Positions 42 to 27,376 of a stretch of 41,366 nt of DNA are shown piece after piece. Position numbers and translations under genes: made by a program. The notes beneath the pieces were generated by a model. That model had not been told where the DNA came from and made no database searches. It saw only the letters and a list, made by a program, of their open reading frames with translations. Within the stretch, counting starts at the first letter, position 1, and each line of letters opens with the position of its first letter. The DNA is from Patescibacteria group bacterium (GTDB lineage Bacteria; Patescibacteriota; Minisyncoccia; UBA9983): positions 1-41,366 of the forward strand of contig JBBTUP010000015.1 of NCBI GenBank assembly GCA_038063695.1, read 5' to 3'.

Positions 42-72
42 CCCCACTTAGAAGCCTTGCTTCTAAGTGGGG
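42..72. repeat. REP-1 hairpin upstream of RAYT-1 (stem CCCCACTTAGAAGC, loop CTT, stem GCTTCTAAGTGGGG)
   Basis: Perfect 14-bp inverted repeat read directly. It ends 4 nt before the TGATAAAAT -10 element of the RAYT-1 gene. Confidence 0.9.
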
Positions 73-2635: not shown

Positions 2636-3292
2636 ATGTTAGTGACTGGAGAAATATATCATATTTTAAATAAAGGGACAGAAAATCGGATTATATTTCA
2701 AAATAAACGTGATTATGAACGATTTTTGTTAACGATTTTTGAATGCAATGATATAAATTTGTCGTCTGAAAATAGACATAGAAGATGTAAAAACAAAGAT
2801 TTTAATAAAAACAAAACTCAGCCATTGGCGGAAATTCTTTGTTTTTGTTTGATGCCTAATCATTTTCATATAGTTGCAAGGCAACTGGTTGATAATGGAA
2901 TTTCTAAATTTATGCAACGCTTAGGGAATAGTTATACTAAATATTTTAATATTAAAAATAATCGCAAGGGATCTCTTTTTATGGCGCGATATAAAAATGT
3001 TCATGTTAATAATGATTCGCAAGTTAAACATTTAATTGCTTATGTTCACGCAAACCCTCTTGATTTATCTATGCCTGAATGGAGATTAGGAAAGATAAGG
3101 GATTTTGAAAAAGCCAGAGATTTTCTTGAGAACTATAATTGGTCTAGTTATGTTTTTTATAGTCGAGGCGAAGCATCGGATTTAGTATCGCAGATTTTGA
3201 ATAAAGGTGCGCTTAATGATTTTTATTCTGAAAAAGAAGATTATTTTTATACTATTAAATCTTGGTCAGGTAGATATTTTGAGGATATTTGA
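2636..3292 (+). CDS. RAYT / IS200-like HUH Y1 transposase family protein, copy 2
   Basis: HUH MPNHFHIVA, Tyr motif GNSYTKYFN, GSLFMARYK. Flanked by REP-2 hairpins. Confidence 0.8.
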   Translation: MLVTGEIYHILNKGTENRIIFQNKRDYERFLLTIFECNDINLSSENRHRRCKNKDFNKNKTQPLAEILCFCLMPNHFHIVARQLVDNGISKFMQRLGNSYTKYFNIKNNRKGSLFMARYKNVHVNNDSQVKHLIAYVHANPLDLSMPEWRLGKIRDFEKARDFLENYNWSSYVFYSRGEASDLVSQILNKGALNDFYSEKEDYFYTIKSWSGRYFEDI

Positions 3293-4304: not shown

Positions 4305-6782
4305 ATGGATAAAAATGATAAAGAAAAAAAAATACTTCCAATAAACATTTCTTCAGAAATGGAAAAATCATATTTGGACTATGCGATGTCTGTTATTGTG
4401 AGTCGCGCCCTACCTGATATCAGAGATGGCCTAAAACCGGTGCATAGGAGAATACTTTACACAATGCATGAGGTTGGGCTTAATCATTCCGCAAAATTTA
4501 AAAAATCAGCGGCTGTTGTAGGTGATGCTTTAAGCAAATATCATCCGCATGGCGACATTGCTTTATATGACGCAATGGCGAGAATGGCTCAAGATTTTTT
4601 AATGCGCTATCCTTTAGTTGATGGTCAAGGAAACTGGGGTTCTATAGACGGAGATTCGCCTGCTGCTTATCGTTATACAGAAGCAAGAATGACAGCCATG
4701 GCCGATGAAATGCTTAAAGATATTAATAAAGATACTGTTGATTTTAGGCCTAATTATGACAATAGATTAAAGGAGCCGATAGTTTTACCAAGCGCTATAC
4801 CTCAGCTTTTGGTAAATGGGTGTATGGGTATTGCCGTGGGTATGGCTACTAATATTCCTCCGCACAATCTTTCCGAAGTTGTTGATGCTACTATTTATTT
4901 TGCAGATAATCCTAAGGCAACCACAGAGGAATTAATGAAATTTATAAAAGGCCCTGATTTTCCTACGGGCGGGCTTATTTTCAATCCCAAAGACATTCAT
5001 CATGCGTACGCTTCAGGTCGTGGAGGTATAGTGACGCGAGGTGAGGCGGAGATTACAGAGTCAGGCAAGGGCGCTTTCCAAATAATAATTTCTTCTATAC
5101 CTTATCAAGTTAATAAATCAGAATTAATTATAAAAATGGCTGAATTAGTTAACGAGAAAAGACTGGAAGGTATAAGAGATATAAGAGACGAATCAAGCCG
5201 GGAAGGAATAAGGATTGTTGTTGAATTAAAATTAGGAATTAATCCCCAAAAAGTTTTGAATAATTTATACAGGCATATTGACCTTGAGAAAATGTATCAC
5301 TTCAATATGCTTGCCCTGGTGGATGGCGGCACTCAGCCGCAGATTCTTACTCTGAAAATGATACTGGACGAATTTATAAAACACAGGAAAATTATAGTGG
5401 AAAGAAGGGCAAAATTTGATCTGGCCAGAGCTCAAGATAGAGCCCATATCCTTGAAGGACTAAAAAGGGCCTTAGATCGCATAGACGCGGTAATCAAGAT
5501 AATAAAATCATCCAAAGATAAAGAAGCCGCACATGTTAAATTAAGAGAGAAATTTAAATTCACAGACAGACAGACAGAAGCCATTCTCGAAATGAAACTT
5601 CAGACTTTGGCTGGATTAGAAAGGCAAAAAATAGAGGATGAGTTAAAAGAAAAACAAAAATTGATAAAAGATCTTCAGGCCTTGCTTAATGACCCCAAGA
5701 AGATTCTTAAGGTTGTAAAAGACGAATTGACGGAAATTAAAGATAAATATGGCGACGAGCGTAAAACTAAAATAGTGGAGCATATGGCAAAGATAATGTC
5801 TGTTGAAGATCTGGTCCCAGAAAAAGAATCCGTCCTGGTTATTACGAAGGGCGGTTATGTCAAGCGTTCTGACCCATCTTTTTACAAATCACAAAAAAGG
5901 GGCGGAATAGGTGTTATTGATATGAGTACGAAAGACGAGGATTTTGTAACGATTTTTTTAACTGCCAATACTCATGATGATCTGCTTTTCTTTACAGATA
6001 AAGGCAAAGTCTATCAAACAAAGATGTTTGAGATACCGGAAGGCAAACGCGCAAGCAAGGGTAAATCAATTGTTAATTTTCTTTCGCTTTCCTCAGAAGA
6101 AAGAGTAACTTCAGTGCTTGTGATACCTAAGAACTTAGAAGCAAGGCTTCCACTTGGAAGCCTTGCTTCTAAGGAGACAATAGGTTTGATAATGGTTACT
6201 AAGAACGGTATAATTAAGAAAGTAGCACTTTCAAGTTTTAAAGACGTAAGAAGTAGTGGTATTATTGCTATAAGATTAAGCAAGGGAGATGAATTAATGT
6301 GGGCAAGCATTGTTTCAAAAGGAGACGATGTTATTTTGATCACAAAACAAGGACAGTCAATTCGTTTTAAGGAATCAGACGCGAGAATTATGGGAAGAAC
6401 TGCAGCAGGAGTTAGGGCCATAAGATTGAAAAAGAATGATGAATTGATAGGTACCGGAGCAATAAAGAAAAGCGAGAAAACATTATCTCTTTTGACAATG
6501 AGCAAGAATGGTTTTGGAAAGAAAACTGATATTAAAAATTATCGTCTGCAAAAAAGAGGGGGCTCTGGCATAAAGACATCAAAAATTACAAGTAAGACAG
6601 GCGAACTGATAGCAGCATATATTATTAATCCTGAATTTGAAGAGATAATCGCTATATCAAAAAAAGGTCAGGTTATAAGAACTTCTCTTTCAGGTATTCC
6701 AATGCTTGGTAGGCAGACCCAGGGAGTGCGAATTATGAAACTTAAACCAGGAGATAGTATCGCGTCGCTTACTTGTTTGTAG
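4305..6782 (+). CDS. gyrA: DNA gyrase subunit A
   Basis: [30 protein letters not shown], active-site [10 protein letters not shown] and C-terminal beta-pinwheel repeats; 825 aa. Carries the in-frame palindrome at 6134..6173. Confidence 0.97.
6134..6173. repeat. REP-1-derived doublet palindrome (CTTAGAAGCAAGGCTTCCA-CT-TGGAAGCCTTGCTTCTAAG) in frame inside gyrA
   Basis: Perfect 19-bp arms with a 2-nt spacer. Each arm contains the REP-1 core GAAGC-AAG-GCTTC. Translated as [13 protein letters not shown] with no stop or frameshift. Confidence 0.9.
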
Positions 6783-6795
6783 TAAAATTGTTAGT

Positions 6796-6819
6796 TGTTA
6801 GCCACTGAGTGGCGCACAT
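6796..6819. repeat. REP-3 element (TGTTAGCCACTGAGTGGCGCACAT, hairpin GCCAC-TGA-GTGGC)
   Basis: Near-identical (22/24) to 7506..7529 in the same orientation. Overlaps the last codons and the stop of RAYT-3. Confidence 0.85.
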
Positions 6820-7475
6820 TTAGATGTATATTCTGGAAGCCAGTCTTTTAATGCTGTTTCTAATTCGTTTTTATCTTTATAAATTTCATCTATAAAATCT
6901 CGGCTAACAAACGGCATTTGATCTGTATTTAAATATTCTCTTAAACTTGACCAAGGATAATTTCGAAGAAAATTTATCGCGTCTTTTTTATTTTTCACTC
7001 CTTTTTCTTTCCAGTACTTTTCGGAACTTAAAAGTTCAAGAGAATTTAAATGTATATAGAGAGGCAAATAAAGTCTATAAGTATCGTTATCCACATGAGA
7101 TATTTTATACGATCCTTGAAACAGGTTGCCGTTTCGCGAGTTGATTTTATTGAAATAATGCGAATAACCCATTTCGTTTTTGTGCATAAGGCGTGCAATG
7201 CCATTTTCAATAAGTGGTTCAAGGAGTAGATGAAAATGATTTGGAAGCAAACAAAAAGCATGTATCTTTACAAGTGGGTCATCGGGAATTTTTTTACAAG
7301 CAGATTTAATATTATAGCGTGATAGATTACTGATAGGTTGTCGTTGAGTATTAAAAAGAATTAAATTAACAATAAATCTTTCATAATTTTTCTTATCCAA
7401 AAATATAGAACGTTTGTCTGTCCCACGATTAAAGACATGATAAAGTTCGTTATTTGTTGGTGTAAATTTTCTCAT
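6798..7475 (-). CDS. RAYT / IS200-like HUH Y1 transposase family protein, copy 3
   Basis: HUH LPNHFHLLL, Tyr motif EMGYSHYFN, GNLFQGSYK. Bracketed by REP-3 copies. Confidence 0.8.
   Translation of the reverse strand: MRKFTPTNNELYHVFNRGTDKRSIFLDKKNYERFIVNLILFNTQRQPISNLSRYNIKSACKKIPDDPLVKIHAFCLLPNHFHLLLEPLIENGIARLMHKNEMGYSHYFNKINSRNGNLFQGSYKISHVDNDTYRLYLPLYIHLNSLELLSSEKYWKEKGVKNKKDAINFLRNYPWSSLREYLNTDQMPFVSRDFIDEIYKDKNELETALKDWLPEYTSKCAPLSG
7087..7095 (+). promoter_or_regulatory. Perfect DnaA-box 9-mer TTATCCACA (inside the RAYT-3 CDS)
   Basis: Exact consensus match only. Confidence 0.25.
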
Positions 7476-12972: not shown

Positions 12973-13043
12973 TGCGGGCACGGAGAGTCGAACTCCGGTC
13001 TCGTCCTTGGCAAGGACGCATTCTGCCACTAAACTATGCCCGC
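12973..13043 (-). tRNA. tRNA-Gly (GCC)
   Basis: Hand-folded cloverleaf: acceptor GCGGGCA/TGCCCGC, anticodon stem CGTCC/GGACG, loop TTGCCAA, T arm CGGAG-TTCGACT-CTCCG. Confidence 0.9.
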
Positions 13044-13086
13044 GATTATGAAATTATATCATAAACATGGCGTGCCCCGTACAAAA

Positions 13087-13170
13087 TGCTGGGGGGGAGA
13101 TTTGAACTCCCAATCTCTTGCGAGAATCAGGTTCTAAGCCTGACGCGTATGCCAATTCCGCCACCCCAGC
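13087..13170 (-). tRNA. tRNA-Leu (UAG), type II with long variable arm
   Basis: Acceptor GCTGGGG/CCCCAGC, anticodon stem TCAGG/CCTGA, loop CTTAGAA, T arm GGGAG-TTCAAAT-CTCCC. Flanked by 14-nt perfectly complementary sequences. Confidence 0.9.
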
Positions 13171-13184
13171 ATTTTGTACGGGGC

Positions 13185-13355
13185 AAATCTGCCATCTTGC
13201 CCCGTAGTTAAAGCGGATCTTTATACTATGAGGTTCACCACTCGCCCGATTTTTTCCGCCCACCAGGAATCGAACCTGGAACCTTCTCCTTTCCGCCCTA
13301 GGCGGACCAGCCTCGGGATGAAAGAGGGAGATGCCCCGCCCCCTGCCATCGCCTA
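13185..13355 (-). ncRNA. Unassigned GC-rich spacer with tRNA-like fragments (T arm plus acceptor 3' strand; tRNA-Leu 5' fragment)
   Basis: CCAGG-TTCGATT-CCTGG-TGGGCGG at 13256..13279 (minus sense) and GGGCGAGTGGTGAACC at 13232..13247, which copies the 5' end of tRNA-Leu(UAA). I could not fold a complete cloverleaf. Confidence 0.3.
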
Positions 13356-13428
13356 TGCTCCGTGAGGGTCTCGAACCCCCGACCTTCTCCTTAAGAGGGA
13401 GCTGCTCTACCAACTGAGCTAACGGAGC
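13356..13428 (-). tRNA. tRNA-Lys (CUU)
   Basis: Acceptor GCTCCGT/ACGGAGC, D arm GCTC-AGTTGGTA-GAGC, anticodon loop CTCTTAA, T arm GGGGG-TTCGAGA-CCCTC. Confidence 0.85.
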
Positions 13429-13543
13429 GTAGGACATGGCGGGCAGGTCTACCAATTGACCCGTTCGCATCGCTACGCTTAGGCCGCTAGGCGGGGCGAG
13501 ACTATGGGCGGGAAAATGTGCGTGGCCTTCCCTGTACAGGTGG
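13429..13543 (-). ncRNA. Unassigned GC-rich spacer with a D-arm-like motif
   Basis: GGTC-AATTGGTA-GACC (13446..13461, minus sense) and hairpin CCGC-TAG-GCGG. No complete tRNA could be folded. Confidence 0.3.
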
Positions 13544-13626
13544 TGGGCGAGGAGGGAGTCGAACCCTCACCCGCTTACGCGGACAACATTTTAAGTGTTG
13601 CGTGTATACCATTCCACCACTCGCCC
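13544..13626 (-). tRNA. tRNA-Leu (UAA), type II; CCA apparently encoded (13541..13543)
   Basis: Acceptor GGGCGAG/CTCGCCC, anticodon stem CAACA/TGTTG, loop CTTAAAA, T arm GAGGG-TTCGACT-CCCTC. Confidence 0.9.
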
Positions 13627-13694
13627 ACCACCTATACGGGGTGAATATACCAACTTGCTCTTTATATTTTTATCATTTACTATTTTATCTATAA

Positions 13695-13766
13695 GGCCGT
13701 GTAGCCAAGTGGTAAGGCAAGGGTCTGCAAAACCCTTATACGTGGGTTCGATTCCCGCCACGGCCT
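13695..13766 (+). tRNA. tRNA-Cys (GCA)
   Basis: Acceptor GGCCGTG/CACGGCC, anticodon stem AGGGT/ACCCT, loop CTGCAAA, T arm GTGGG-TTCGATT-CCCGC. Confidence 0.9.
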
Positions 13767-14086
13767 CATTTTTTTAAAAGTTCGTCTATCCTAGCTCTGT
13801 TTTTTTCGCCAGTGTCTATCTCAAAATCAAAAGACGGAAGGAATTTAATTTTGAGCCGTGATTTACAATAATTTTTGAAGTCATTTTTTTTCTTTTTTAG
13901 GATATCAATCACTTCCTTTTCTTTATTGTCGGGCATCACGCTTATAAAAATTTTTGCTGATTTTAGGTCTGGTAATATTTGCGCGCGTATTACCGTTATA
14001 AGCGAAGAGGACTCAATTCGCGATCCGATAAATAAGCTTGCTATTTCTTGCAGGAGGGAATTTATTTTTTCCTGCCTTAAGGTCAT
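13766..14086 (-). CDS. rbfA: Ribosome-binding factor A
   Basis: About 105 aa, RQEKINSLLQEIASLFI and the C-terminal FDFEIDTG pattern. Sits directly downstream of infB as in the conserved operon. Confidence 0.85.
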   Translation of the reverse strand: MTLRQEKINSLLQEIASLFIGSRIESSSLITVIRAQILPDLKSAKIFISVMPDNKEKEVIDILKKKKNDFKNYCKSRLKIKFLPSFDFEIDTGEKNRARIDELLKK

Positions 14087-24166: not shown

Positions 24167-27100
24167 TCAGACGGTATTCATCTCTTTCATTTCCTCCACG
24201 ATTATTGACGGTTCGTTGTTGCGTATAGATATTTTTCCTCTTACTCCAATACAATTTCCTTCCCGTATCATATTGCCGTAATCATTCAATTTTCTTGGAA
24301 ATATCACCATCTCAATACTGTCTGTAAAATCCGATAGTTTTATAAAGAGCATGGGTTCGTTCTTTTTTGTCATTACTTTTCTTATTTCTTCTATCATGCC
24401 AGCAGTAACAACAGGTATGTTATTCGGCAGTTTTTTCGCGTCGCTTATTTTTGTTTTTATTTTCTCCATTTTATCCTTAAATTTGTTCAGCGGGTGTCCG
24501 GAAATATACAATCCTAATAATTCTTTTTCCCACATTAATTTTTCTTCCTGTGTGGCTGGTTCTGTTTTTTTGAGATTGAGATTGGGTATGGAGGTCTTAT
24601 CTTGCATAAGAGAGAACAGAGAACTTTGATTTTGTTTTGATTTTACTGCCTGGCGATTATAATCTAGGGCATCGTCTATATTAACAAGTATTTGGTTTCT
24701 TTCTCCTAATGCGTCCATGGCGCCTGATTTTATTAACGCTTCTAAAGATTTTTTATTTAAATTTTTATGCTGGATATGGTCAAGAAAATCAGAGAATGAT
24801 TCAAAAACCCCTTTTCTTTTTCTTTCTTCAATAATCGCTTCGGCAATTTCTGTTCCCAGATTTTTTATAGTACAAAGACCAAAGCGTATTCCCTGCCTGC
24901 CGGCAGGCAGGCCTGCTTCTTCAATATTGACGATTGTAAAATCTCCAAAACTTTCATTTACATCTGGCGGGAGTACAGGCATGTTCATTCTTTTGCATTC
25001 ATTTATTGATACAGCGATTTTTTCCGTGTCACCGGAATCGGAAGTCAAAACTGCTGTCATAAATTCTGCAGGATAATGCGCCTTCATATAGGCGGTTTGA
25101 TACGCCACTTTTGCATAAGAGGCAGCATGCGCTTTATTGAAGCCGTATCCCTTAAAAGGATCAAAAAGTTTCCATAATTCTTCCGCTTTTTCAGGAGTGA
25201 GGTTGCTGTGTTTCTGGCATCCCTCAATAAATATCTTTTCCTGTTTTGCCATTTCAGCGGGTATTTTTTTGCCAATTGCTTTTCGGAATTTATCCACGCT
25301 TTCCCAGTTGTATCCTGCAAGTTCAATGGCAATTAAAAGCACATCCTCTTGATAAGTTACAACGCCATAAGTTTTTTTAAGAATTTTTTCCAAGCGTGGA
25401 TCAAGATAAGCGATCGGTTCTTTGCCATGCTTGCGTTTTATGTAATTTGGAATGTTTGCCATTGGTCCTGGCCTAAAAAGCGCTATCATTGCCATAATGT
25501 CGTTAAAATTACTTGGCTTTAATTCCTTTAGCCATCGCGTCATCCCGCTCCCGCTTAATTGGAAGACGCCGATAGTTTCTCCTTTGGAAAGCAGGTTAAA
25601 AGTTTTTTTATCCTCCAAAGGAAGATTTTCAAGATCAATTTCTTTTTTGTGGATTTTTTTAACAAGGCGGATTGCGTTCCCCAATATAGCCAAATTTTTT
25701 ATACCAAGAAAATCCATCTTTAAAAGGCCCGTATCTTCAACAGCATGCATGTCATATTGAGTGATAATTTTGTCTCCGTTCGGTTCGTGCTGTAGAGGCA
25801 CAAAATCAGTTAGTTTAGTTGGACTTATGACAACTCCTGCTGCATGCACAGAAACATGTCTTGCGCATCCTTCGATTTTTCTCGCCAGATCAATTATCTC
25901 TTTTACTTCATTTTCTGTTTCATACATTTCTCTAAGTTCTGGGGTTATTTTTAAGGCGTTGTTTATTGTCATCGGGAAGCCTTGGGAGCCAAAAGGAATA
26001 AGTTTGGCTATCGTGTCTCCCAAGCTGTAAGGTTTTCCAAGGGCGCGGGTAATGTCTCTTACGGCAACGCGCGCCATCATTGTTCCAAAAGTTCCTATTT
26101 GCGCTACGTGGTCCTCGCCGTATTTTGTTTTTACATAATTTATAATTTCTTCTCTGCGGTCATCAGCAAAATCCATATCTATATCAGGGGGAGAAGGGCG
26201 GTAAGGATTTAAAAATCTTTCAAAGGGCAGTTCGTATTTTATAGGATCAATATTTGTTATGCCTATTAAATATGAAATAAAAGAGCCAGCTGCCGAACCC
26301 CTGGTAGTTGTTATTATTTTGTTTTTTCTTGCCCAATTTATAATATCTGCAACTACCAAAAAGTATGGCGAGTACCCTTTTTCTTTTATAACCTTAAGCT
26401 CGTATTCCATTCTTTTTTCAGCTTCGGGATTTTTTTCTCTATATAATTTTTTATAACCTTCATCTTTTAATTCTTTAAGTTTTTCGTCCGGAGTTTTTTT
26501 GTCCTCTATTTTAAAGATAGGGAAGACCCATTTGCCGAGTTCCAACTCTATATTACACATATCAGCAATTTTTTTGGTATTTTCGATTGCATCTGGAGTA
26601 TCTTTAAAAAATTTTTCCATTTCTTCTCCTGACCGGAAAGAAAAATTCTCGTTTTTCATTGTTAGCCTATTGGCGTCTGTTAGTTTTGCGTTTGTTTGTA
26701 TAGCAATTAGAAGATCTTGAGCCTCGGCATCTTCTGGTTTTATATAATGAACATCTTGAGTGGCAACTAAAGGGATGTTTAATTTTTTGGCGATATTAAT
26801 TAATCCATTTTGTATATTTTCGTAATTTTCTATATTAGGATGATATCCAATTTCTATATAAAAATTTTCTTTGCCGAAAATTTCTTCATATTCCTTTGCG
26901 ATTTCTTCAGCCTTTTTTATTTTTTTATTTTCTATGAGGCGGGACAATTCTCCTGCCATACATGCGGAAAGGCCTATAAGCCCGTCACAATGTTTTTTTA
27001 ATAGCTCCCTGTCTATCCTGGGTTTATAATAAAAACCTTGCAGATAACTTTGAGTAATAAGTTCTATCAAATTTTTGTACCCCCTTTCGTTTTTGGCCAG

Positions 27101-27376
27101 AAGTATAAGATGGTATCTTCTATCGTCAATGCCTGGACGTTTGTCGTGCATGGATTCAAACGCCACATAGGTTTCCACTCCCAGTATGGGTTTTATTCCG
27201 GCTTTTTTCGCCTTCTTATAGAATTCAATGGCGCCGTACATGTTGCCGTGGTCAGTCAAGGCCAGGGCGGGCATTTTGTTTTTTACGGCCTCGTCAACCA
27301 ATTCATCAATTTTTGCCAGGCCGTCAAGCAAAGAATAATGGCTGTGCACGTGAAGATGTACGAATTCTGAAGACAT
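24167..27376 (-). CDS. dnaE: DNA polymerase III alpha subunit
   Basis: PHP domain HLHVHSHYSLLDG and LALTDHGNMYG, polymerase core, HhH IRFGLCTIKNLG, OB fold; 1069 aa. Confidence 0.96.
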   Translation of the reverse strand: MSSEFVHLHVHSHYSLLDGLAKIDELVDEAVKNKMPALALTDHGNMYGAIEFYKKAKKAGIKPILGVETYVAFESMHDKRPGIDDRRYHLILLAKNERGYKNLIELITQSYLQGFYYKPRIDRELLKKHCDGLIGLSACMAGELSRLIENKKIKKAEEIAKEYEEIFGKENFYIEIGYHPNIENYENIQNGLINIAKKLNIPLVATQDVHYIKPEDAEAQDLLIAIQTNAKLTDANRLTMKNENFSFRSGEEMEKFFKDTPDAIENTKKIADMCNIELELGKWVFPIFKIEDKKTPDEKLKELKDEGYKKLYREKNPEAEKRMEYELKVIKEKGYSPYFLVVADIINWARKNKIITTTRGSAAGSFISYLIGITNIDPIKYELPFERFLNPYRPSPPDIDMDFADDRREEIINYVKTKYGEDHVAQIGTFGTMMARVAVRDITRALGKPYSLGDTIAKLIPFGSQGFPMTINNALKITPELREMYETENEVKEIIDLARKIEGCARHVSVHAAGVVISPTKLTDFVPLQHEPNGDKIITQYDMHAVEDTGLLKMDFLGIKNLAILGNAIRLVKKIHKKEIDLENLPLEDKKTFNLLSKGETIGVFQLSGSGMTRWLKELKPSNFNDIMAMIALFRPGPMANIPNYIKRKHGKEPIAYLDPRLEKILKKTYGVVTYQEDVLLIAIELAGYNWESVDKFRKAIGKKIPAEMAKQEKIFIEGCQKHSNLTPEKAEELWKLFDPFKGYGFNKAHAASYAKVAYQTAYMKAHYPAEFMTAVLTSDSGDTEKIAVSINECKRMNMPVLPPDVNESFGDFTIVNIEEAGLPAGRQGIRFGLCTIKNLGTEIAEAIIEERKRKGVFESFSDFLDHIQHKNLNKKSLEALIKSGAMDALGERNQILVNIDDALDYNRQAVKSKQNQSSLFSLMQDKTSIPNLNLKKTEPATQEEKLMWEKELLGLYISGHPLNKFKDKMEKIKTKISDAKKLPNNIPVVTAGMIEEIRKVMTKKNEPMLFIKLSDFTDSIEMVIFPRKLNDYGNMIREGNCIGVRGKISIRNNEPSIIVEEMKEMNTV
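24892..24911. repeat. GC-rich perfect 20-bp palindrome CCTGCCTGCCGGCAGGCAGG in frame in dnaE
   Basis: Read directly; encodes LPAGRQG just before the conserved IRFGL. Confidence 0.9.

What the first reader, a model, noticed from the sequence alone, without database searches (positions are those of the whole stretch)
24892..24911. GC-rich 20-bp perfect palindrome translated as LPAGRQG inside dnaE
CCTGCCTGCCGGCAGGCAGG is a loop-less perfect palindrome of very atypical composition for this AT-rich window. It sits in frame (NIEEAG-LPAGRQG-IRFGL) immediately before the conserved IRFGL/HhH segment of Pol III alpha. It belongs to none of the three REP families seen here. It is a second, independent case of a palindromic element embedded in an essential replication gene.
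Basis: partly seen in the sequence, partly recalled or inferred. Interest (0 to 1): 0.62.

Follow-up and report, generated by a model that had tools for sequence, protein, structure and literature searches.

The report
Tiny mobile palindrome inside dnaE
The 20-base palindrome in this bacterium's main replication polymerase gene is a stray copy of a tiny hairpin element found letter-for-letter in many bacterial phyla and in viral contigs; it normally sits beside a miniature nuclease gene at tRNA genes, and here it only adds seven harmless residues to a surface loop.

Summary
CCTGCCTGCCGGCAGGCAGG ("P") lies at 24892-24911, is unique in the window, and is read in frame as LPAGRQG in a low-confidence loop of DnaE just before IRFGL.

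P is not specific to dnaE. The exact 20-mer occurs in at least 120 stretches of species-representative genomes from about 8-10 phyla, where about 0.5 is expected by chance, and in 35 viral-contig stretches. Copies are mostly intergenic. In-frame copies also occur in ftsK, gatB and other genes, always read as LPAGRQ.

In DnaE, perfect P sits at the same nucleotide position in three separated lineages, with empty sister genes between them. One filled/empty pair shows a net +21 nt. Decayed copies exist in relatives.

Loci chosen only by homology to a ~80-aa GIY-YIG nuclease gene carry P just upstream in 57 of 80 cases and a tRNA gene just downstream in 62 of 80. In those cassettes P is an exact +20-nt insertion in a duplicated tRNA 5' fragment.

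Best reading: a solitary passenger copy of an apparently undescribed hairpin element, probably handled by that nuclease. That last step is inferred. No such nuclease gene lies in this window.

The parts
24892..24911 (.). P: 20-nt perfect palindrome CCTGCCTGCCGGCAGGCAGG. As a single strand it folds into an 8-bp stem with a CCGG loop.
   Evidence: Searches give sequence and uniqueness. One search gives the DNA hairpin at -8 kcal/mol. Searches find the identical 20-mer in at least 120 genome stretches and 35 viral stretches.
24890..24910 (-). Seven codons reading LPAGRQG (DnaE residues 823-829). This is the net in-frame insert, of the form G-P-G.
   Evidence: The cleanest filled/empty pair in a relative shows a net +21 nt. 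AlphaFold2 pLDDT is below 50 for residues 820-825.
24890..24925 (-). Hypervariable loop of DnaE (about residues 818-829) between strand 814-817 and strand 828-831, directly ahead of IRFGL and the HhH domain.
   Evidence: The loop differs widely in length among 33 orthologues. Thermus Pol III alpha (2HPI/3E0D) has a gap of 10 residues here.
24167..27376 (-). dnaE (DNA polymerase III alpha, 1069 aa), intact host gene.
   Evidence: PHP, DNA_pol3_alpha, finger, HHH_6 and OB domains.

Best explanation
**What it is.** The palindrome in dnaE is a solitary, non-functional passenger copy of a 20-nt hairpin element, P, that moves within genomes and between phyla.

**P's usual home.** P sits on the 5' side of a gene for a ~80-aa single-domain GIY-YIG nuclease (UPF0213/SLX1-like). 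That gene lies immediately in front of a tRNA gene, behind a duplicated 5' piece of the same tRNA, and P is an exact 20-nt insert in that duplicated piece.

**Likely mechanism.**
1. The nuclease recognises the P hairpin, as the Ssn GIY-YIG nucleases recognise their NTS/SRM hairpins in single-stranded DNA.
2. Cutting by the nuclease, together with host repair or ligation, copies P into new sites.
3. Most new copies land between genes.
4. Inside genes, only events that add a multiple of three survive. Here that is P plus one base, 21 nt.
5. Survivors are read in the cysteine-free frame LPAGRQ and fall in a tolerant surface loop.

In DnaE the loop just before IRFGL is such a place. It was hit independently in at least three lineages at the same nucleotide position, after which the copy decays like neutral sequence.

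**Shown:**
- the identity and distribution of P;
- the in-frame reading and loop location;
- repeated insertion with empty relatives;
- the P / GIY-YIG / tRNA association;
- the exact +20 geometry in cassettes.

**Inferred:**
- that the nuclease binds or cuts P;
- that the nuclease is what spreads P;
- that this genome has, or once had, such a nuclease.
For: **P is widespread and abundant**
By record titles they include Patescibacteria of many classes, Bacteroidota (with cultured isolates), Omnitrophota, Planctomycetota, Gammaproteobacteria, Bdellovibrionales and Thermodesulfovibrionales.
- Exact P also occurs in 35 IMG/VR viral stretches.
- Flanks all differ. A copy nested inside another copy is seen in L018 and L042.

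**Position relative to genes**
- Copies are mostly intergenic: the median longest spanning open frame is 90 codons against 314 at random sites.
- In-frame copies occur in FtsK, GatB, a dehydratase and a PMT glycosyltransferase, all read as LPAGRQ.

**DnaE history**
- Perfect P is present in the window, L123-125, L126 and L127, always ending 2 nt before the Ile codon of IRFGL.
- L122 has a copy with one mismatch. L128 has a copy with three synonymous mismatches at another DnaE site. L121, L129 and L130 are empty.
- The DnaE tree needs at least 4 gains or losses.
- Codon identity at identical residues is only 0.46-0.52 between the three lineages, yet all six LPAGRQ codons are identical. Under shared ancestry with neutral drift this has a probability of about 2e-4.
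- L126 against L129 (88% nt identity) shows GAA AAA GCC ATT becoming GAA AAA AGC CTG CCT GCC GGC AGG CAG GGT ATT, a net +21 nt.

**Link to the nuclease cassette**
- Of 80 metagenome loci chosen only by GIY-YIG homology, 44 have exact P and 13 have near variants 10-78 nt upstream of the ORF. 62 have a same-strand tRNA just downstream.
- In 34 of 35 resolvable cassettes P is a clean +20-nt insert, with no duplication and no loss. It mostly lies at tRNA positions 20-24, and also at 14-15 and 31-32.
- Exact P accompanies proteins only 40-57% identical and is scattered over their whole tree. Seven loci have P on both sides of the ORF.
- The ORF is Pfam GIY-YIG. Its nearest solved relatives are UPF0213 proteins and SLX1.
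- Unbiased clustering of P's neighbours gives GIY-YIG as joint-largest family (5 loci, level with a 23S-rRNA-IVS-type four-helix-bundle family that is adjacent to P only in L050), and no RAYT family among those listed.

**Tolerance in DnaE**
- The insert lies in a loop with pLDDT below 50.

**Precedent**
- Ssn GIY-YIG nucleases cut single-stranded DNA next to hairpin repeats that flank their genes (PMC11893778).
Against: - **No nuclease in the window.** No GIY-YIG gene or other P copy lies in this 41-kb window. The rest of the genome could not be searched.
- **Most copies are solitary.** Among copies found by searching for P itself, only 4 of 125 lie directly upstream of a GIY-YIG ORF and about 4 more lie in ORF-less tRNA-fragment relics. 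The link to the nuclease is therefore indirect.
- **Chemistry.** GIY-YIG enzymes are hydrolytic nucleases with no known strand-transfer chemistry, so a ligase or a repair route has to be assumed.
- **No target rule found.**
  - Preference for hairpin loops at solitary sites is not significant against intergenic controls (8.3% against 4.6% with stems of 7 bp or more, p about 0.08).
  - There is no junction microhomology signal.
- **Insert geometry in dnaE differs from the cassettes.** The dnaE inserts are net +21, not +20, and the exact boundaries are ambiguous.
- **P may play a different role.** P could equally be a target, a regulatory hairpin or an mRNA-stabilising hairpin of the cassette rather than its product.
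Confidence: 0.6

Rival explanations
1. P is a mobile mini-element, but a different enzyme moves it. One candidate is a Y1/HUH single-strand transposase of the RAYT or IS200/IS605 kind, such as the three encoded in this window. On this view the GIY-YIG cassette merely carries P as a target site, terminator or mRNA-stabilising hairpin.
For: - Exact insertion without target duplication is the geometry of IS200/IS605-type single-strand transposition; this comparison rests on general knowledge.
- The window encodes three Y1_Tnp ORFs.
- More than 90% of P copies are not next to a GIY-YIG gene.
Against: - The window's Y1 genes are bracketed by their own, different palindromes.
- P carries no GTAG/CGTC-type tag, and its flanks are variable.
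- No Y1 transposase family recurs near P in 155 loci, whereas GIY-YIG does.
- P is identical across phyla, whereas REPs are mostly lineage-specific (PMC3733652).
Confidence: 0.15
2. P is kept because it does something for the cell. It could be a binding site, an uptake signal or a structural signal recognised by a conserved factor. On this view the dnaE copy is functional, for example as an mRNA hairpin that slows translation, or as a useful peptide in Pol III alpha.
For: - P is far better conserved than the protein gene beside it.
- All three DnaE lineages keep the perfect palindrome at one position.
- In the mRNA it forms a stable hairpin.
Against: - Most DnaE orthologues, including close relatives (L121, L129, L130), lack it.
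- Copies decay in L122 and L128.
- Copies elsewhere sit in unrelated genes and in random intergenic contexts.
- The peptide is in a low-confidence loop.
Confidence: 0.1
3. LPAGRQG is an ancestral or convergent protein feature of DnaE and the palindrome is incidental, or the palindrome is an assembly or sequencing artefact.
For: The peptide recurs at the same place in three lineages.
Against: - The GC-rich codons are identical across lineages whose synonymous sites are otherwise about half changed.
- The same 20-mer is common outside dnaE.
- The sequence is present unchanged in contigs from three studies and in cultured isolates of other phyla.
Confidence: 0.02

Closest known systems
Ssn single-domain GIY-YIG nucleases with their NTS/SRM hairpin repeats (Chenal et al. 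2025, PMC11893778)
   Same: - A small stand-alone GIY-YIG nuclease gene is flanked by a hairpin that is also scattered through the genome.
- The hairpin-gene association is of similar strength: 71% of ssnA homologues have an SRM nearby, and here 57 of 80 ORFs have P or a variant upstream.
   Different: - P is a symmetric 20-nt perfect palindrome with no sequence likeness to NTS (about 30 nt, with asymmetric flanks).
- P is identical across phyla rather than varying with the nuclease.
- The nuclease gene sits in a tRNA-gene duplication.
- The nearest solved relatives of the protein are UPF0213 and SLX1; membership of the cd10448 Ssn clade was not testable.
- NTS repeats are not reported as in-frame gene inserts.
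REP/REPIN elements with RAYT transposases, including intragenic REPs (Bertels & Rainey 2011, PMC3116915; Di Nocera et al. 2013, PMC3733652)
   Same: - Short GC-rich palindromes, mostly extragenic, that bracket the gene of the presumed mobilising enzyme.
- Intragenic REPs are reported to lie often in replication and repair genes, as with dnaE here and gyrA in this window.
   Different: - P has no GTAG/CGTC tag.
- The partner gene is a GIY-YIG nuclease, not a Y1 transposase.
- P occurs as single units rather than doublets.
- The sequence is the same across many phyla.
Rickettsia palindromic elements (RPE; from general knowledge, Ogata et al. 2000)
   Same: Palindromic selfish DNA inserted in frame into protein-coding genes, including essential ones, and tolerated as extra peptide segments.
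   Different: - RPEs are about 100-150 bp and confined to Rickettsia.
- No partner enzyme is known for them.
- P is 20 nt and occurs across phyla.
Small dispersed repeats (SDR) of Nostoc and relatives (Elhai et al. 2008, Genome Res 18:1484). The reference is listed in PMC3116915; the content given here is from memory because the paper is not held.
   Same: Very small mobile repeats (21-27 nt) with hairpin potential, inserted exactly and sometimes nested in one another.
   Different: - SDRs are cyanobacterial.
- Their sequences differ from P.
- No linked nuclease gene has been described.
Phage T4 SegB, a free-standing GIY-YIG homing endonuclease in a tRNA gene cluster (PMC2330249)
   Same: A GIY-YIG gene lodged among tRNA genes, with a target that includes conserved tRNA-gene sequence.
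   Different: - By the paper's abstract SegB recognises a 27-bp site and cuts leaving 2-nt 3' overhangs; from general knowledge it is a larger protein with a DNA-binding part.
- The cassette protein here is about 79 aa, essentially the catalytic domain alone.
- The cassette protein comes with a fixed hairpin.

Membership tests
REP/REPIN-RAYT | Palindrome carries a conserved unpaired GTAG or CGTC tag at one end | tested here: not met
   Flanks of 123 copies show no fixed tag. The only bias is A at position -1 (41%) with T depleted (9%).
REP/REPIN-RAYT | Copies bracket a RAYT (Y1 transposase) gene | tested here: not met
   The window's three Y1_Tnp ORFs are flanked by other palindromes. No Y1 family is among the recurrent neighbours of P in 155 loci.
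REP/REPIN-RAYT | Mostly extragenic, with occasional intragenic copies | tested here: met
   The median spanning open frame is 90 codons against 314 at random sites. In-frame copies occur in FtsK, GatB and DnaE.
Ssn nuclease / SRM hairpin system | Single-domain GIY-YIG nuclease gene flanked by its own hairpin repeat | tested here: met
   Met for the element family: 57 of 80 GIY-YIG loci have P or a variant upstream and 7 have P on both sides. Not seen in this window.
Ssn nuclease / SRM hairpin system | [quoted passage not shown] | not testable with these tools
   No CDD library was available. The profile's best solved relatives are UPF0213 proteins 1YWL and 1ZG2 (E about 2e-11) and SLX1, which hints at a different clade.
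Ssn nuclease / SRM hairpin system | Hairpin matches the NTS/SRM consensus (CGTCATTCCCGCGMAVGCGGGAATCYRG-like) | tested here: not met
   P (CCTGCCTGCCGGCAGGCAGG) shares no sequence with the NTS given.
Ssn nuclease / SRM hairpin system | Site-specific cleavage of single-stranded DNA next to the hairpin | not testable with these tools
   This needs purified protein.
Rickettsia palindromic elements | Palindromic element of about 100-150 bp inserted in frame in genes of Rickettsia | tested here: not met
   In-frame insertion is met, but the size is 20 nt and the hosts span many phyla.
Free-standing GIY-YIG homing endonuclease (SegB/I-TevI type) | GIY-YIG catalytic domain joined to a DNA-binding domain that recognises a long double-stranded site | tested here: not met
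   The cassette ORFs are about 70-90 aa, and Pfam GIY-YIG covers residues 1-69 of 79.
Free-standing GIY-YIG homing endonuclease (SegB/I-TevI type) | Gene lodged in or next to a conserved target gene, with target sequence on both sides | tested here: met
   A duplicated tRNA 5' fragment lies upstream and the intact tRNA downstream in 34 or more cassettes.

The most novel reading that the evidence does not exclude
P would be the smallest mobile DNA known: a bare 20-nt hairpin copied in trans by a UPF0213-type mini GIY-YIG nuclease that itself rides in tRNA-gene cassettes. The pair would form a two-part selfish system not found in the literature searched here. It would be shared by about ten bacterial phyla and by phages, and it would repeatedly write the peptide LPAGRQ into essential proteins, with a preferred site in Pol III alpha.
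Probability: 0.35. Interest if true: 0.9.

Novelty: new variant of a known kind. Interest (0 to 1): 0.72.

Why it matters
- **A lower size limit for mobile DNA.** If a 20-nt hairpin can spread on its own across phyla, it lowers the known size limit for mobile DNA. It would also give a function to the large, uncharacterised UPF0213/YhbQ-like GIY-YIG group.
- **A source of protein inserts.** It would explain a recurrent peptide insert (LPAGRQ) in essential proteins of small-genome bacteria.
- **A testable enzyme-substrate pair.** The nuclease-hairpin pair has an exactly known 20-nt substrate and could be tested directly, in the way the Ssn enzymes were. It might yield another site-specific single-strand DNA nuclease.
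- **Annotation.** These inserts and the tRNA fragments beside the cassettes can be flagged as element-derived.

Tried and rejected
2. **Preference for hairpin loops at solitary sites.** This was suggested by the tRNA-loop and P-in-P cases. Stems of 7 bp or more flank 8.3% of sites against 4.6% of intergenic controls (p about 0.08; Mann-Whitney p = 0.17), so it is not established.
3. **Junction microhomology, as a templated or MMEJ-type signature.** There is no enrichment: 2 nt or more in 10.9% of sites against 11.5% of controls. The 5-nt GCAGG at the window's left junction is therefore idiosyncratic.
4. **A fixed target-site duplication.** Most copies have none. Five copies have exact 7-nt abutting repeats, lying in or beside short tandem repeats in at least some cases; these remain unexplained.
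5. **One ancient insertion in DnaE.** Rejected by codon identity and by the tree. Within the clade of the window, L122 and L121, one gain plus one loss cannot be told from two gains.
6. **Co-variation of hairpin type with nuclease lineage.** Exact P is scattered over the whole tree: 23 changes against 26 when shuffled.
7. **Read-level polymorphism.** Only Logan contigs were available, which drop rare variants.
8. **Literature.** No paper holds the 20-mer or LPAGRQ, and no paper describes the GIY-YIG/tRNA/palindrome pairing in bacteria.
9. **NCBIfam.** It gave no family for the nuclease.
Full report
**1. The observation**

The sequence CCTGCCTGCCGGCAGGCAGG, called P below, is at window 24892-24911 and is a perfect 20-nt palindrome. 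It is 80% G+C in a region of about 36% G+C. It is the only match in the window even with three mismatches allowed, and none appeared in 100 shuffles.

dnaE is the minus-strand ORF 24167..27376 (1069 aa) with PHP, DNA_pol3_alpha, finger, HHH_6 and OB domains. On the gene strand the region reads GAA GAA GCA GGC CTG CCT GCC GGC AGG CAG GGA ATA CGC, so LPAGRQG is residues 823-829 and IRFGL follows at 830-834.

The stretch including P occurs without any difference in contigs from three separate studies: groundwater 2021, a 2025 study, and drinking water 2024. It also occurs in three replicate assemblies of a 99%-identical relative. It is therefore not an assembly artefact.

**2. P is an insert in a variable loop of DnaE**

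In 33 orthologues the segment between the FTVV strand and IRFGL varies from 2 to about 50 residues. Thermus Pol III alpha (2HPI/3E0D) has a 10-residue gap here relative to this protein.

An AlphaFold2 model (mean pLDDT 84) places the insert in the loop between strand 814-817 and strand 828-831. pLDDT is below 50 for residues 820-825.

Among the 120 best DnaE homologues, LP[A/T]GRQ immediately before IRFGL is found in three lineages only:
- the window lineage (P0001, P0002, P0003);
- P0005;
- a Tagabacteria group (P0099, P0101, P0102, P0104).

The DNA shows the following:

| Locus | State of P at the loop site |
|---|---|
| window, L123-125 | perfect P |
| L126 (P0005) | perfect P |
| L127 (P0101) | perfect P |
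| L122 (P0003) | one mismatch (LPTGRQG) |
| L121 | empty |
| L129, L130 | empty |

In all three lineages P ends exactly 2 nt before the Ile codon of IRFGL. In each case it has the form G-P-G or C-P-C.

P0114 (L128) carries a decayed copy, CCTGCCAGCCGGTAGGCAAG, at a different DnaE site near residue 534. All three of its changes are synonymous.

The cleanest filled/empty pair is L126 against L129, at 88% nucleotide identity. GAA AAA GCC ATT becomes GAA AAA AGC CTG CCT GCC GGC AGG CAG GGT ATT, a net +21 nt.

**3. Independent insertions rather than shared ancestry**

A tree of 114 DnaE proteins, built with the loop masked, needs at least four gains or losses of the insert. Well-supported branches force this number.

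Between the three lineages only 46-52% of identical residues use the same codon. Yet all six LPAGRQ codons are identical, and they are GC-rich in genes of 37-42% G+C. Under one ancient insertion followed by neutral drift, the probability is about 2e-4.

The same nucleotide position was therefore hit at least three times, or P is actively kept perfect. Against the second option, the copies in L122 and L128 decay, and most orthologues lack P.

Within the clade of the window, L122 and L121, one gain plus one loss cannot be separated from two gains.

**4. P is not a dnaE feature**

About 0.5 occurrences are expected for 596 Gb of even composition. By record titles the hosts are:
- many Patescibacteria classes;
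- Bacteroidota, including cultured Winogradskyella, Flagellimonas, Longitalea and Flavivirga;
- Omnitrophota;
- Planctomycetota;
- Gammaproteobacteria MAGs;
- Bdellovibrionales;
- Thermodesulfovibrionales.

P also occurs in 35 IMG/VR viral stretches, 42 copies in all, with up to six copies on one 29.5-kb contig.

All flanks differ. In L018 and L042 one copy sits in the central CCGG of another.

Copies avoid genes: the median longest open frame spanning a copy is 90 codons, against 314 at random sites. Real in-frame copies exist in FtsK, GatB, a sugar dehydratase and a PMT-type glycosyltransferase. Those four, the three further long-ORF copies in L014, L043 and L074 (judged from the ORFs only), and the four DnaE inserts are all read as LPAGRQ. 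The two cysteine-containing frames (PACRQAG, CLPAGR) do not appear among them. P has no stop codon in any frame.

**5. The link to a mini nuclease at tRNA genes**

Several copies lay in tRNA-like sequence. Notes from earlier agents of this scan pointed to a GIY-YIG link, and I tested it myself.

*Anatomy of one cassette.* L037 comes from a curated complete WWE3 genome. The order along the DNA is:
1. the first 24 nt of tRNA-Lys;
2. P;
3. the next 8 nt of the tRNA;
4. a 79-aa ORF;
5. the intact tRNA-Lys.

The ORF is Pfam GIY-YIG. Its nearest solved relatives are the UPF0213 proteins 1YWL and 1ZG2, and SLX1.

*Searching outward from P.* Among 125 copies found by searching for P, only four lie 23-41 nt upstream of such an ORF. 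About four more lie in tRNA-fragment relics without an ORF. Clustering all neighbouring ORFs without any prior gives GIY-YIG as joint-largest family, level at five loci with a 23S-rRNA-IVS-type four-helix-bundle family that is adjacent to P only in L050, and no Y1 transposase family among those listed.

*The reciprocal test.* I took 80 metagenome loci chosen only by homology to the nuclease.
- 44 have exact P 10-78 nt upstream of the ORF, and 13 more have a near variant.
- 62 have a same-strand tRNA gene directly downstream. The tRNAs include Arg, Leu, Lys, Phe, Asn, Val, Gly, Thr, Met, Gln and Ser.

*Geometry.* I compared each interrupted tRNA fragment with the intact tRNA in the same locus. 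P is a clean +20-nt insertion, with no duplication and no loss, in 34 of 35 resolvable cases. It lies mostly at tRNA positions 20-24 (…GGTA^GAGC, the D-loop/D-stem junction). It also lies at positions 14-15 and at the 5' side of the anticodon loop.

*Conservation.* Exact P accompanies nucleases that are only 40-57% identical to the query and is scattered over their whole tree. Seven loci have P on both sides of the ORF. P is therefore far better conserved than the protein next to it, which argues that its sequence is read by something.

*Other hairpins.* Some cassettes carry a different GC-rich hairpin at the same place (L039, L232, L236).

**6. How it most likely works**

*Shown:*
- P is an exact, portable unit.
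- It enters new sites, as filled and empty alleles show.
- It is a regular part of a GIY-YIG/tRNA cassette.
- In dnaE it is a solitary copy in a tolerant loop and decays afterwards.

*Inferred:*
- The nuclease recognises the P hairpin. As single-stranded DNA P forms an 8-bp stem with a CCGG loop at -8 kcal/mol.
- Its cuts, followed by host ligation or repair, spread P.

The precedent is the Ssn family. These are single-domain GIY-YIG enzymes that cut single-stranded DNA next to hairpin repeats that flank their own genes and are scattered in the genome (PMC11893778).

Gene copies would be the rare events that add a multiple of three (P plus one base here), are read as LPAGRQ, and fall in loops.

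No rule for target choice emerged:
- A is favoured and T avoided just before P.
- Preference for hairpin loops is not significant at solitary sites.
- There is no microhomology signal.

The repeated hit at one dnaE position suggests some local preference that I could not define.

**7. What is missing**

I could not count P in this genome or ask whether it has the nuclease. The window itself has neither a second P nor a GIY-YIG ORF. Only contigs, not raw reads, were available for the runs, so polymorphism could not be tested.

**8. Comparison with what is known**

Full-text searches found no paper with the 20-mer or the peptide. They also found no paper describing this pairing in bacteria. The closest known systems are:
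- **Ssn/SRM.** The logic is the same. The hairpin differs, the protein clade is probably different, and there is no tRNA cassette.
- **REP/REPIN with RAYT.** Intragenic REPs are reported often in replication and repair genes (PMC3733652). P lacks the tag and the Y1 partner.
- **Rickettsia palindromic elements.** They are inserted in frame but are five times longer and confined to one genus.
- **Small dispersed repeats of Nostoc.** This comparison is from memory, because the paper is not held.
- **T4 SegB.** A GIY-YIG homing enzyme among tRNA genes (PMC2330249) that recognises a 27-bp site; from general knowledge it is a larger protein.

I rate P a new variant of a known kind, a hairpin repeat with a cognate small nuclease. 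There is a real chance that it is more than that.

**9. Verdict**

- The dnaE palindrome itself is a harmless passenger.
- The element it belongs to is unusual, and I could not find it described.

Noticed in passing
window 47-67, 269-289, 740-760, 6134-6173; ORFs 92-733, 2636-3292, 6798-7475(-): A second palindrome family, CTTAGAAGC-N3-GCTTCTAAG, has 8 half-sites against 0.3 expected. It flanks a Y1_Tnp (RAYT-like) ORF, and a 40-nt doublet of it lies in frame inside gyrA (4305-6782). Three Y1_Tnp ORFs lie within 7.5 kb.
   Followed up: partly
window 13172-13355 and 13429-13540 (minus strand, spacers of the tRNA cluster 12973-13767): The GC-rich spacers between tRNA genes hold tRNA fragments.
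- A 12-nt copy of the 5' end of tRNA-Leu(taa) lies at 13247-13236.
- A tRNA-Lys-like anticodon arm is split by a ~30-nt insert carrying a TCCGCC/GGCGGA hairpin (13330-13281).
- A tRNA-Leu-like piece ends ...GGTAGA followed by CCTGCC, the first 6 nt of P.

These may be relics of tRNA-targeting cassettes. Rfam finds only the five tRNAs.
   Followed up: partly
L101:1815, L082:346, L045:773, L080:187, L149:3391, L133:1660, L139:8396, L050:3400, L058:1870: Many P copies sit in short tandem repeats of 7-8 nt units. Five have exact 7-nt direct repeats abutting both sides, where fewer than 0.1% of sites would by chance. In 24% of copies the two 20-nt flanks share a direct 6-mer, against 8-10% at random sites. 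This could be a 7-bp target duplication in one mode of insertion or slippage next to the hairpin; it is unexplained.
   Followed up: partly
L060:2751-4892: P and the GIY-YIG domain lie in frame inside a type I restriction specificity (HsdS, Methylase_S) ORF, between its two halves, not at a tRNA gene.
   Followed up: partly
L050:3400-3797: P lies 26 nt upstream of a 23S-rRNA-IVS-type four-helix-bundle protein gene. That gene is itself bracketed by inverted arrays of the octamer GAGTGATC, and a second gene of the same family lies just upstream.
   Followed up: no
L077:2650-3140 (minus): In one cassette a 19-nt P variant (CTGCCTGACGGCAGGCAGG) replaces 19 nt (D-loop to anticodon) of an otherwise near full-length tRNA-Met copy. 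This is a substitution rather than an insertion.
   Followed up: no
L039:800-1100; L232, L236: tRNA-Val cassettes carry a different GC-rich hairpin (core CCGAACGTACCGTTCGG) at the place where P sits in other cassettes. The cassette family therefore uses more than one hairpin.
   Followed up: no
L128:4902-4921 (DnaE of P0114, residues ~534-540): A decayed P at a second DnaE site still encodes LPAGRQ. Its three changes are all synonymous and move towards AT-richer codons, which shows what an old insert looks like.
   Followed up: yes
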